Of a stretch of DNA of 64,000 nucleotides, positions 6,001-9,000 are shown piece after piece. Position numbers: made by a program. Position 1 is the first letter of the stretch; the number at the start of each line of letters is the position of its first letter. This stretch comes from Escherichia coli (GTDB taxonomy: Bacteria; Pseudomonadota; Gammaproteobacteria; Enterobacterales; Enterobacteriaceae). The stretch lies in assembly GCF_041886205.1 (NCBI RefSeq), contig NZ_CP169029.1, one strand, 5' to 3'.

Positions 6001-9000
6001 TGACATTACCTTGCCAGTTTACAACATAAGTTGGATTCGGTAAGGAATCCGAGAGTGCTTTTCGGAATGATATTTGGTTTTCTAAATCACCCTGAATGAC
6101 TTTACGACGACGAACTGAGCGTAACAGGTAGAATCCCCATAAAAGGCTACTGCCAACTAATAAAACGGATAATGTCGTAACAATATAAAATTGCTCGCTA
6201 TATAGGTCCCATGTGTCAATGGTCACATTGGGCATTTTAATCCATTTTTCCGTCAGGCGCAGAACTTCGCTTGGGGGAATTGCATTCAGTGCTTTATTAA
6301 TAATATCCTTAAGTTCCGGTTCTCCGCGAGGAAAAGCGAACGAAAGCGATGCATTCGGAACGCCAGGAATAAGAAAATGATAAAGTTCATTAGGATAGTA
6401 ATGATCGATCATGTAACGCGAATTTAACTGTGTCGCGACCAGAGCATCAAGTTCACCTTCCTTAACCTTGTGAAATGCAGCGCTGGCATTATCGACCTGT
6501 ATCCATTCAACCTCCGGATACATCTCTTTTAATTGCGAATGCAGCTCATAATAATATGGAATGGCAACTTTCATTCCTTTTTTTAATGTTTGTTCACTGT
6601 CAGGCGCTTTTTGCATGACAAAAACGTAAGGCGTTGTTATGAAGGCTTCAGCAAATAAAACATTATTTTCTCGATCTTCACTATAAATAGCGCCAGGTAT
6701 TATATCCCATCCTCCGGGGCTAAGCTGTGTTCCAGCATGGATATTGTGTGAAACGGTGATCGGAGAAAAATTTAAACCTGTTTGCAAGGTAATAATATTA
6801 AGAATGTCCCCCATAACGCCCCGAACCGAGCCATTTTCATCCGTCATAGAATAGGGGGGCGAGTAAGGATTTTCCAGCACCTTTAAATTGGGATGCTGCT
6901 TAATCCACTGTTTTTCATGTTCAGTGAGTTCTAATGGTTTGTTCAGAAAGGCCAGGTTTCCTGTATCAAGCCAATTTTGTGATACTTCATAGCGAACTTC
7001 ATTTGTTAAAGCATCAACAAATCTATTGAGTACTTCATTAAGAATGACAGATTCTTTTCTGGTCAAGAAAAAATTATATTGACGCGGCGAGTTATAATAT
7101 TTCACTACATTTAAGGAGTGAGTGAAATAGCGGGAAATCATACTGCTGGTAATGATGTTACTACCAATAAAGTAATCATTGTGCCCAGCTGAGACGGATG
7201 CTAATGCCTGATATAAATTTGTAAAAGAGATAATTGTTGCTTTTGGAAATGATTGATGAATTACCTCGTCTGGGGGGTAATTTGCTACCCGAGCAATATT
7301 TACTGGTTTTGGTGAGGTAAGCGGTCGCATTGAGTCGTGAAGGGTGGTTACCAGCGCCGGAAAGGTAATTATCAATGGTTTGGTTGCAGCAATGTCATCA
7401 TTAAGAGGCGGCGAAGCAACTAAATGTGATAACACTATATCGACTTCACCTTCTTCCAGCGCGTCCATTGCTTTTTGATGATCGGCGTATTCCCGGAGTG
7501 TTAATTTGATATTTAACGCTCTTTTTAAAAGATTTAAATAATCAGCATTAATACCACGAACCCGTTGCTGCGAATCGGTATGCAACAAGGTAGCCGTTTG
7601 GGACTTGTGTACTGCAATCACAAGATTTTTTTTGCTCGCTAACCAACGTAATTCCTTGTTGCTCAGACGTAGTGGATCAAGTGTGACACGGTTGTTACTA
7701 CTGATGCCACGATATTCGATGTAATCTTCGTCTGCGAAACTCATGGTCGACCAAAGAGCACAACAGAGAAGAAAAATATAGGGTAAAAACTTCATGTGGT
7801 TAGCCGATTTTGTTACGTTGTGCGAATGTGTAAAGATCCATCAGTGATTTACATTCTAATTTTTCCATCAGGCGACTTTTATAAGTGCTGACAGTTTTGT
7901 TGCTGATGAACATTTTTTCAGCAATGTCATTATTATCCTTGCCATCAAGAATATACCGCATGACACTAATTTCTTGTTTCGATAAGGAGTCGAGTTTTTG
8001 CTGGTCGGACGTTAAACTTCCAACAAACCGGTTGAGAGAGAAGGGGAAATAGCAGTAGCCATTTTTTGCAGCTTCAATAGCCGCAATGATATTGTTCATG
8101 CCTTCTTTTTTACTCACGAAACCATTAGCGCCAGCATCAGCACAATGTTTCCCGTAAAAATGGTCATTTTTAGCGGAGACGATAATAATAATTCCGCTAT
8201 ATTGGCGCTTCCTCAGCGTTTCTAACACCTGGATACCGTTAACCCCGGGGATATCGACATCAATGATGACGATATCAGGCTTAAGTGTTTCCACCCGCTG
8301 AACGGCGCTTCCGCCTTCAGTCAACTCTGCTAAGATTTCAATATCGTTTTTGATCAATAAATTACGAATTGCTGCGATAGCAAGAGGATGGTCATCAATA
8401 ATTATTGCGTTCATAGATTATTCCCTTTGCAATGAAGCATCTCCCTTCTCCCTGTAGTAATACAGACATAAGGCGTCATCTCATTTTCTCAATAAAAATA
8501 AGAAAATCTGAGCTTCCTTTAAGATAATTCGACAAGTATACCATATAAATAGTCGGCATAAATGAAATGTCAACAATAAAATCAGGGATTGTACCGATGA
8601 TTTATAGTTTCAAGTTGGCACTATAAGTCTTCTTACTAATCCTACAGGCGTAAGAATTGTATTGCAAAAGCCACGGTTTAGTCCTCTGTTGTTTTTTTTG
8701 CACCTCATTTAAATTAGGCCTCCAACGTTCCTGGGATAATGTGCAACACATGCACTGTGTTTGATATGAAGAATGAATGCTCTTTTCATTCAATTCATAA
8801 ATTTCATCTATGAGAAATGAGAGATAATAGTGGAACAGATTAATTCAAATAAAAAACATTCTAACAGAAGAAAATACTTTTCTTTATTGGCGGTAGTTTT
8901 ATTTATTGCGTTTTCAGGTGCCTATGCCTATTGGTCAATGGAATTAGAAGACATGATTAGTACAGATGACGCCTATGTCACGGGGAATGCAGATCCAATT

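What the first reader, a model, noticed from the sequence alone, without database searches (positions are those of the whole stretch)
8630..8656. Candidate EvgA box retained upstream of the disrupted emrK
The inverted repeat TTCTTAC-N13-GTAAGAA sits in the evgA-emrK divergent region, where EvgA is known to activate emrKY. It is still present although its target gene is now interrupted, so the regulatory circuit may persist without a functional output.
Basis: partly seen in the sequence, partly recalled or inferred. Interest (0 to 1): 0.25.

Follow-up and report, generated by a model that had tools for sequence, protein, structure and literature searches.

The report
Known EvgA operator upstream of IS903-disrupted emrK
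The repeat overlaps the already known EvgA binding site of the E. coli emrKY efflux-pump promoter, but the real site is a tighter 18-base palindrome sharing only its right arm, and it survives next to the broken emrK simply because the insertion that broke the gene is very recent.

Summary
The inverted repeat TTCTTAC-N13-GTAAGAA is at 8630-8656 exactly, in the evgA-emrK divergent spacer of an E. coli chromosome. The spacer is 100% identical to K-12 MG1655. The element shared with the other EvgA-activated promoters (frc, yfdX, safA, ydeP, yegR) is the 18-bp palindrome ATCCTACAGGCGTAAGAA at 8639-8656, which matches 14 of 16 positions of TTCYTACA-NN-TGTARGAA. It is the top PWM hit in the 64-kb window (18.5 bits; next best 9.1). 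Its cores CCTACA and GTAAGAA are invariant in 13 aligned sequences. The left arm (8630-8636) is TTCTCAC in all 10 non-K-12-type E. coli alleles sampled and TTCTCAT or ATCTCAT in the two outgroups, so the perfect repeat is a derived single-base coincidence. emrK is split by a 1057-bp IS903 (9558-10614) with a 9-bp target duplication. The junction occurs in none of 5,426 complete E. coli genomes, and removing the IS restores an EmrK identical to K-12. evgA, evgS and emrY are intact. Retention of the site therefore reflects recency, not selection. This is a known regulatory site beside a strain-private pseudogene. Interest is low.

The parts
8630..8656 (.). It is a composite of an extra half-site-like heptamer and the right half of the true box.
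   Evidence: Exact match. The two arm centres are 20 bp apart, unlike any other EvgA box examined.
8639..8656 (.). Canonical 18-bp EvgA box ATCCTACAGGCGTAAGAA. This is the inferred binding site for an EvgA dimer that activates emrKY.
   Evidence: It matches 14 of 16 specified positions of TTCYTACA-NN-TGTARGAA. With a PWM trained on the five other K-12 boxes it scores 18.5 bits, the top hit in 64 kb; the next best is 9.1. An 18-mer sharing test that assumes no consensus peaks at 8639-8658. CCTACA and GTAAGAA are invariant in 13 sequences, and a divergent Escherichia genome (L005) carries a perfect 16/16 box at the homologous position.
8630..8637 (+). Third half-site-like octamer TTCTTACT, in direct orientation 9 bp upstream of the left half-site. 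The T at 8634 is a derived change.
   Evidence: Half-site PWM score is 10.2 bits, against 5.0 for the ancestral TTCTCACT. All 10 other E. coli alleles have TTCTCAC, and the outgroups have TTCTCAT or ATCTCAT. The exact K-12-type 41-mer occurs in 2,537 records, out of 5,426 genomes searched.
8680..8685 (+). AGTCCT, a motif at a fixed distance (24-29 nt) after the box. Its role is unknown.
   Evidence: The pattern A[GA]TC[CT]T occurs at the same offset downstream of the emrK, safA, ydeP and yegR boxes.
8710..8715 (+). Putative -10 hexamer TAAATT of the EvgA-dependent emrK promoter. It predicts a transcription start near 8722 and a box centre near -74.5 (inferred).
   Evidence: A TAnnnT hexamer starts 53-54 nt after the box in 5 of 6 EvgA targets; only 2 of 2000 shuffles reach 5. 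In ydeP this hexamer lies just upstream of the start implied by the -178 leader used in PMC11210196. The columns are conserved in the outgroups.
7800..8414 (-). evgA, the response regulator that recognises the box.
   Evidence: The protein is identical to K-12 EvgA. NCBIfam EvgA equivalog, 437.9 bits against a cut-off of 251.
4202..7795 (-). evgS, the sensor kinase. The gene is intact.
   Evidence: 1197-aa ORF with 8 amino-acid differences from K-12 and no internal stops.
8411..8440 (-). evgL, a leader peptide (MLHCKGNNL) translationally coupled to evgA.
   Evidence: Identical to K-12 b4781. Function described in PMC11210196.
8830..9557 (+). emrK 5' fragment, covering codons 1-242. The open frame continues into the IS and stops at 9588.
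   Evidence: ORF 8830-9588. It matches the EmrA/EmrK adaptor family below the full-length cut-off. Translation shown.
9558..10614 (+). IS903 (IS5 family), 1057 bp. The transposase reads in the same direction as emrK.
   Evidence: The 18-bp terminal inverted repeat GGCTTTGTTGAATAAATC is present at both ends. The 9-bp target duplication ACCGGCACG lies at 9549-9557 and 10615-10623. IS5-family transposase, 357 bits. The junction is absent from all 5,426 complete E. coli genomes.
10615..11059 (+). emrK 3' fragment.
   Evidence: Joining 8830-9557 to 10624-11059 gives a 1164-nt ORF with 0 amino-acid differences from K-12 EmrK.
11059..12597 (+). emrY, the MFS permease of the pump. The ORF is intact, downstream of the IS.
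   Evidence: 512 aa with 2 amino-acid differences from K-12.

Best explanation
The functional element is the previously described 18-bp EvgA box of the emrKY promoter, ATCCTACAGGCGTAAGAA, at 8639-8656. Inferred mechanism: a phosphorylated EvgA dimer (NarL/FixJ-type HTH) binds the two inverted half-sites, whose centres lie one helical turn apart. It then activates an emrK promoter whose -10 lies about 54 bp downstream (TAAATT, 8710-8715). This places the box near -74.5, the same arrangement as at ydeP. That heptamer became a perfect complement only through a C-to-T change at 8634 in the K-12-type allele. The site is intact next to a broken emrK because a single, recent, strain-private IS903 transposition split the gene. 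Everything else in the module (evgL, evgA, evgS, the spacer, emrY) is unchanged. Shown here: the sequence match, its uniqueness in the window, conservation of the cores, the IS anatomy and the recency of the insertion. Inferred: EvgA occupancy at these exact bases, the position of the transcription start and the mode of activation.
For: (1) Scoring the consensus on K-12 promoters known to be activated by EvgA gives frc 16/16, yfdX 15/16, safA 15/16, yegR 15/16, ydeP 14/16, and the emrK-evgA spacer 14/16 at 8639-8656. (2) A PWM trained without the emrK site ranks 8639-8656 first in the 64-kb window, at 18.5 bits against 9.1 for the next hit. (4) In the 13-sequence alignment CCTACA and GTAAGAA are invariant. 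Changes fall in the spacer, the outer positions and one half-site position (C/T at box position 11, where T is the consensus base). The outgroups L005 and L006 match the consensus better, at 16/16 and 15/16. (5) The left arm is TTCTCAC, TTCTCAT or ATCTCAT in every sequence other than the K-12-type allele. (6) A -10-like hexamer lies at fixed spacing in 5 of 6 targets and agrees with the ydeP leader coordinates in PMC11210196. (7) The literature states that EvgA binds the emrKY promoter and regulates it directly (PMC8174306, PMC9496106, PMC5706723). (8) The IS903 has perfect ends and a 9-bp target duplication, its junction is found in 0 of 5,426 genomes, and EmrK reconstructed without the IS is identical to K-12.
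Against: The papers that hold the footprint and the consensus could not be read here (Kato 2000, Masuda and Church 2003, Itou 2009, Eguchi 2003). The consensus was therefore recalled from memory and then verified empirically, and the exact protected bases are not confirmed. The emrK transcription start is inferred. A table of constitutive promoters in PMC3946193 lists a different emrK promoter, TTGATA-17-TTTCAT (8761-8789), which would put the box near -148. The extra half-site scores as well as a true half-site, and only 10 sites of that quality occur in 128 kb of both strands. A role for it in the K-12 lineage is therefore not excluded.
Confidence: 0.85

Rival explanations
1. One reading: TTCTTAC-N13-GTAAGAA (8630-8656) is itself the EvgA operator, with the two 7-bp arms as the two half-sites.
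For: The inverted repeat is a perfect 7+7 and unlikely by chance, with 0.04 expected per window. Both arms resemble the half-site consensus.
Against: The arm centres are 20 bp apart, whereas the five other EvgA boxes scored have a 2-bp spacer with centres 10 bp apart. The left arm differs in all 12 non-K-12-type sequences, although these lineages keep evgAS and emrKY. The consensus-free sharing test peaks from 8639, not 8630.
Confidence: 0.04
2. Composite site: in K-12-type alleles the derived TTCTTACT (8630-8637) acts as an auxiliary third half-site. It would recruit an extra EvgA protomer or dimer, or offer an alternative register, and so tune emrKY (or evgAS) induction differently from other E. 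coli lineages.
For: The C-to-T change at 8634 raises the half-site score from 5.0 to 10.2 bits. Half-sites of that quality occur about once per 12.8 kb per strand. The allele is common, with the exact 41-mer in 2,537 records.
Against: The other five EvgA promoters show no equivalent third half-site at this offset. The 9-bp direct-repeat offset does not fit the inverted-dimer geometry. There are no functional data. A frequent allele may simply reflect heavy sampling of that clade.
Confidence: 0.1
3. The repeat acts as an RNA or DNA hairpin, for example a terminator or attenuator in a transcript crossing the spacer.
For: A 7-bp stem can be drawn.
Against: The fold is weak: -2.8 kcal/mol with a 13-nt loop, z = -1.4, and 21 of 200 shuffles fold at least as well. 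No T-run follows the stem. The site lies upstream of the evgA starts (about 8528 and 8538, from the leader coordinates in PMC11210196) and upstream of the inferred emrK start, so it is probably not transcribed.
Confidence: 0.01

Closest known systems
EvgA box of the E. coli K-12 emrKY promoter and EvgA regulon (18-bp inverted repeat, TTCPyTACA half-sites; Kato et al. 2000 and Masuda and Church 2003, both cited from memory and through secondary citations)
   Same: The whole 415-bp spacer is base-for-base identical to K-12 MG1655. The box has the same 8+2+8 geometry and cores as the frc, yfdX, safA, ydeP and yegR boxes. EvgA is identical in sequence.
   Different: The site itself does not differ. 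The only difference is downstream, where emrK carries an IS903 insertion absent from K-12 and from all 5,426 complete genomes searched.
BvgA and other NarL/FixJ-family operators (inverted heptad repeats bound by a response-regulator dimer)
   Same: EvgA belongs to the NarL family (PMC9496106). The site is an inverted repeat of half-sites spaced one helical turn apart, upstream of an activator-dependent promoter.
   Different: The half-site sequence is specific to EvgA. Whether secondary low-affinity sites are filled cooperatively, as at Bordetella promoters (general knowledge), was not tested here.
IS903 (IS5 family) insertional gene inactivation
   Same: The element is 1057 bp long, with 18-bp terminal inverted repeats, a 9-bp target duplication and an IS5-family transposase.
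   Different: Only the target differs, at emrK codon 242. IS5-family and IS903B insertions in or near emrK exist in a few other genomes but at other positions, for example HL15 after about 195 nt of the gene.

Membership tests
EvgA box (operator of the EvgA regulon) | 18-bp inverted repeat matching TTCYTACA-NN-TGTARGAA | tested here: met
   8639-8656 matches 14 of 16 positions. Its PWM score of 18.5 bits is the top hit of the window. Training boxes score 22-27 bits.
EvgA box (operator of the EvgA regulon) | Lies upstream of a gene shown experimentally to be activated directly by EvgA | tested here: met
   The box lies 173 nt upstream of the emrK start codon. Direct regulation of emrKY by EvgA is stated in PMC8174306, PMC9496106 and PMC5706723.
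EvgA box (operator of the EvgA regulon) | Half-site cores conserved across lineages that keep evgAS-emrKY | tested here: met
   CCTACA and GTAAGAA are invariant in 13 sequences, including two outgroups.
EvgA box (operator of the EvgA regulon) | Promoter architecture shared with other EvgA targets (fixed box to -10 spacing) | tested here: met
   A TAnnnT hexamer starts 53-54 nt after the box in 5 of 6 targets, a count reached by 2 of 2000 shuffles. The transcription start itself is inferred.
EvgA box (operator of the EvgA regulon) | Physical binding of EvgA~P to these bases (footprint or EMSA) | not testable with these tools
   The primary papers are not held. Secondary sources say only that EvgA binds the emrKY promoter region.
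   The spacer is 13 nt, against 2 nt in the five reference boxes.
   The left arm differs in all 10 other E. coli alleles and in both outgroups.
IS903 / IS5 family insertion sequence | About 1057 bp, 18-bp terminal inverted repeats, 9-bp target duplication, DDE transposase of the IS5 family | tested here: met

The most novel reading that the evidence does not exclude
The C-to-T change at 8634, derived in the K-12-type allele, creates a consensus-grade third EvgA half-site abutting the canonical box. This could change EvgA occupancy or cooperativity and make emrKY induction (or evgAS feedback) quantitatively different between E. coli lineages. In this strain the EvgA-activated promoter now also reads into IS903 in the sense orientation, which might couple transposase or emrY expression to acid signalling.
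Probability: 0.08. Interest if true: 0.3.

Novelty: already known. Interest (0 to 1): 0.1.

Why it matters
It matters little beyond annotation. The finding correctly flags the EvgA operator of emrKY but draws its boundaries wrongly; the corrected site is 8639-8656. The strain has lost the EmrK adaptor of an acid- and bile-related efflux pump through a private IS903 insertion, while the EvgS/EvgA system and its other outputs remain intact. This is routine recent pseudogenisation. It does not show a regulatory circuit being maintained without an output.

Tried and rejected
(1) I could not retrieve the primary footprint and consensus papers (Kato 2000, Itou 2009, Masuda and Church 2002 and 2003, Ma 2004, Eguchi 2003); none is held. 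Full-text searches for the motif strings found nothing, and other literature searches gave only secondary statements.

(2) A first reading of the shared box-N23-AGTCYT motif as the -10 element, which would place the box at -41.5 (class II), was dropped. The ydeP leader coordinates (-178) in PMC11210196 put the ydeP start 66 nt after the box, and a better conserved TAnnnT hexamer appeared at +53/54.

(3) The generic sigma-70 scan of the spacer gave one weak site, no more than shuffles give, so it was uninformative.

(4) The promoter hexamers listed for emrK and evgA in the gSELEX table (PMC3946193) do not fit the evgA leader coordinates of PMC11210196. I treated them as predictions.

(5) The hairpin reading was rejected.

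(6) EvgA homologue loci in Klebsiella, Hafnia, Enterobacter and Buttiauxella have at best 12/16 boxes upstream. They were not used for footprinting.

Full report
**Locus.** The window is an E. coli chromosome segment. It carries yfdE (2962-4146, +), evgS (4202-7795, -), evgA (7800-8414, -), a 415-bp spacer (8415-8829), emrK (starting at GTG 8830, +), emrY (11059-12597, +) and dsdA (12705-14033, -). The spacer is 100% identical to K-12 MG1655 and to many other E. coli genomes. EvgA is identical in protein sequence to K-12. EvgS (8 substitutions) and EmrY (2 substitutions) are intact.

**Observation.** TTCTTAC-N13-GTAAGAA is present exactly at 8630-8656. It is the only such match in the window at up to 1 mismatch, with 0.04 expected from shuffles.

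**What the site really is.** I recalled the published EvgA consensus as an 18-bp inverted repeat with TTCPyTACA half-sites (Masuda and Church 2003). The paper could not be opened, so I tested the consensus empirically.
- In K-12, each promoter known to be activated directly by EvgA has one outstanding match: frc 16/16, yfdX 15/16, safA 15/16, yegR 15/16 and ydeP 14/16. The emrK-evgA spacer has 14/16 at ATCCTACAGGCGTAAGAA, window 8639-8656.
- A PWM built only from the five other boxes ranks 8639-8656 first in the whole 64-kb window, at 18.5 bits. The runner-up scores 9.1 bits.
- A test that assumes no consensus asks which 18-mers of the spacer are best shared with the five other upstream regions. 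It peaks at 8639-8658 with 68-70 of 90, against shuffled maxima of 61-63.

**Conservation.** I aligned the spacer from 10 diverse E. coli alleles (94.7-97.8% identical) with two outgroups found through EvgA. L005 is a divergent Escherichia genome. L006 is a contig labelled Yersinia vastinensis. Both have emrK divergent from evgA.
- CCTACA and GTAAGAA are invariant in all 13 sequences. Differences fall in the 2-bp spacer, the outer positions and box position 11.
- L005 carries a perfect 16/16 box and L006 a 15/16 box.
- The left arm is TTCTCAC in all 10 other E. coli alleles, TTCTCAT in L005 and ATCTCAT in L006.
- The exact 41-mer 8622-8662 occurs in 2,537 records, out of 5,426 genomes searched.

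The change raises the half-site score of this octamer from 5.0 to 10.2 bits. A lineage-specific auxiliary role therefore cannot be excluded. No other EvgA promoter shows a comparable third half-site.

**Promoter context (inferred).** A TAnnnT hexamer starts 53-54 nt after the box in 5 of 6 EvgA targets, a count reached by only 2 of 2000 shuffles. In ydeP this hexamer sits just upstream of the start implied by the -178 leader used in PMC11210196, which puts the ydeP box centre near -74.5. By analogy, the emrK -10 would be TAAATT at 8710-8715 and the start would lie near 8722. A second shared motif, A[GA]TC[CT]T 24-29 nt after the box (8680-8685), remains unexplained.

PMC3946193 lists other hexamers for this spacer and notes H-NS binding there. 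On the other strand, the evgA leader coordinates (-114 and -124) put the evgA starts at about 8528 and 8538, roughly 110-120 bp from the box. Published statements on evgAS autoregulation disagree. PMC8174306 reports it as not autoregulated, while PMC11210196 says it is "reported to be autoregulatory".

**The disrupted target.** emrK is split after codon 242 by a 1057-bp IS903 (9558-10614).
- The IS has perfect 18-bp terminal repeats, a 9-bp target duplication (ACCGGCACG) and an IS5-family transposase in the same orientation as emrK.
- The left junction is found in none of 5,426 complete E. coli genomes.
- Removing the IS and one copy of the duplication restores an ORF that encodes an EmrK identical to K-12.

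The insertion is thus a recent, private event and the only lesion in the gene. Retention of the operator is what neutrality predicts, and it says nothing about selection. EvgS/EvgA also retains its other targets elsewhere in the genome.

**Verdict.** The finding points to a real and already described regulatory site, with the wrong boundaries, beside an ordinary IS-mediated pseudogene. The direct footprint coordinates could not be checked because the primary papers are not held. That is the main residual uncertainty.

Noticed in passing
window 9576-9586 and 9642-9652: A perfect 11-bp inverted repeat (GAACTTTTGCT / AGCAAAAGTTC) pairs the inner part of the left IS903 terminal repeat with the bases just after the probable transposase start (GTG 9635, giving 307 aa). 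Only transcripts entering from outside, such as those from the EvgA-activated emrK promoter, would contain both arms. This resembles the fold-back protection against read-through known for other IS elements.
   Followed up: no
window 8680-8685, and the same offset in the K-12 safA, ydeP and yegR promoters: The motif A[GA]TC[CT]T lies exactly 24-29 nt after the EvgA box in four of six EvgA-activated promoters. Its function is unknown. It could be a secondary EvgA contact or an RNA polymerase contact.
   Followed up: partly
L006 (NZ_CACVAF010000001.1, labelled Yersinia vastinensis): This contig encodes an EvgA 94% identical to E. coli EvgA, with a divergent emrK-like gene and a 15/16 EvgA box. 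That is unexpectedly close for a Yersinia genome and suggests horizontal transfer or mislabelling.
   Followed up: no
L010 (NZ_JAEUAT010000078.1, Rhizobium cauense, 398-bp contig): A 398-bp contig in a Rhizobium assembly encodes 114 residues 100% identical to E. coli EvgA. This is probably contamination of that assembly.
   Followed up: no
L008 (Klebsiella pneumoniae) and L011 (Buttiauxella sp.), upstream of the evgA homologue: Both carry the identical 18-mer TTCCTACAGCTGTCATCC, with a perfect EvgA-type left half-site and a degenerate right half. It lies 179 nt and 305 nt upstream of the regulator gene, respectively.
   Followed up: no
window 8411-8440 (minus strand): The 9-codon leader peptide evgL (MLHCKGNNL) overlaps the evgA start codon and is identical to K-12 b4781. 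PMC11210196 reports that it is required for evgA translation and repressed by CsrA.
   Followed up: partly
K-12 yfdX upstream region (L002, about 115 nt before the start codon): A second, weaker EvgA-like box (TAACTACAACTGTAAGAT, 13/16) lies 20 nt downstream of the main yfdX box. yfdX is also the one EvgA target without the +53/54 -10-like hexamer.
   Followed up: no
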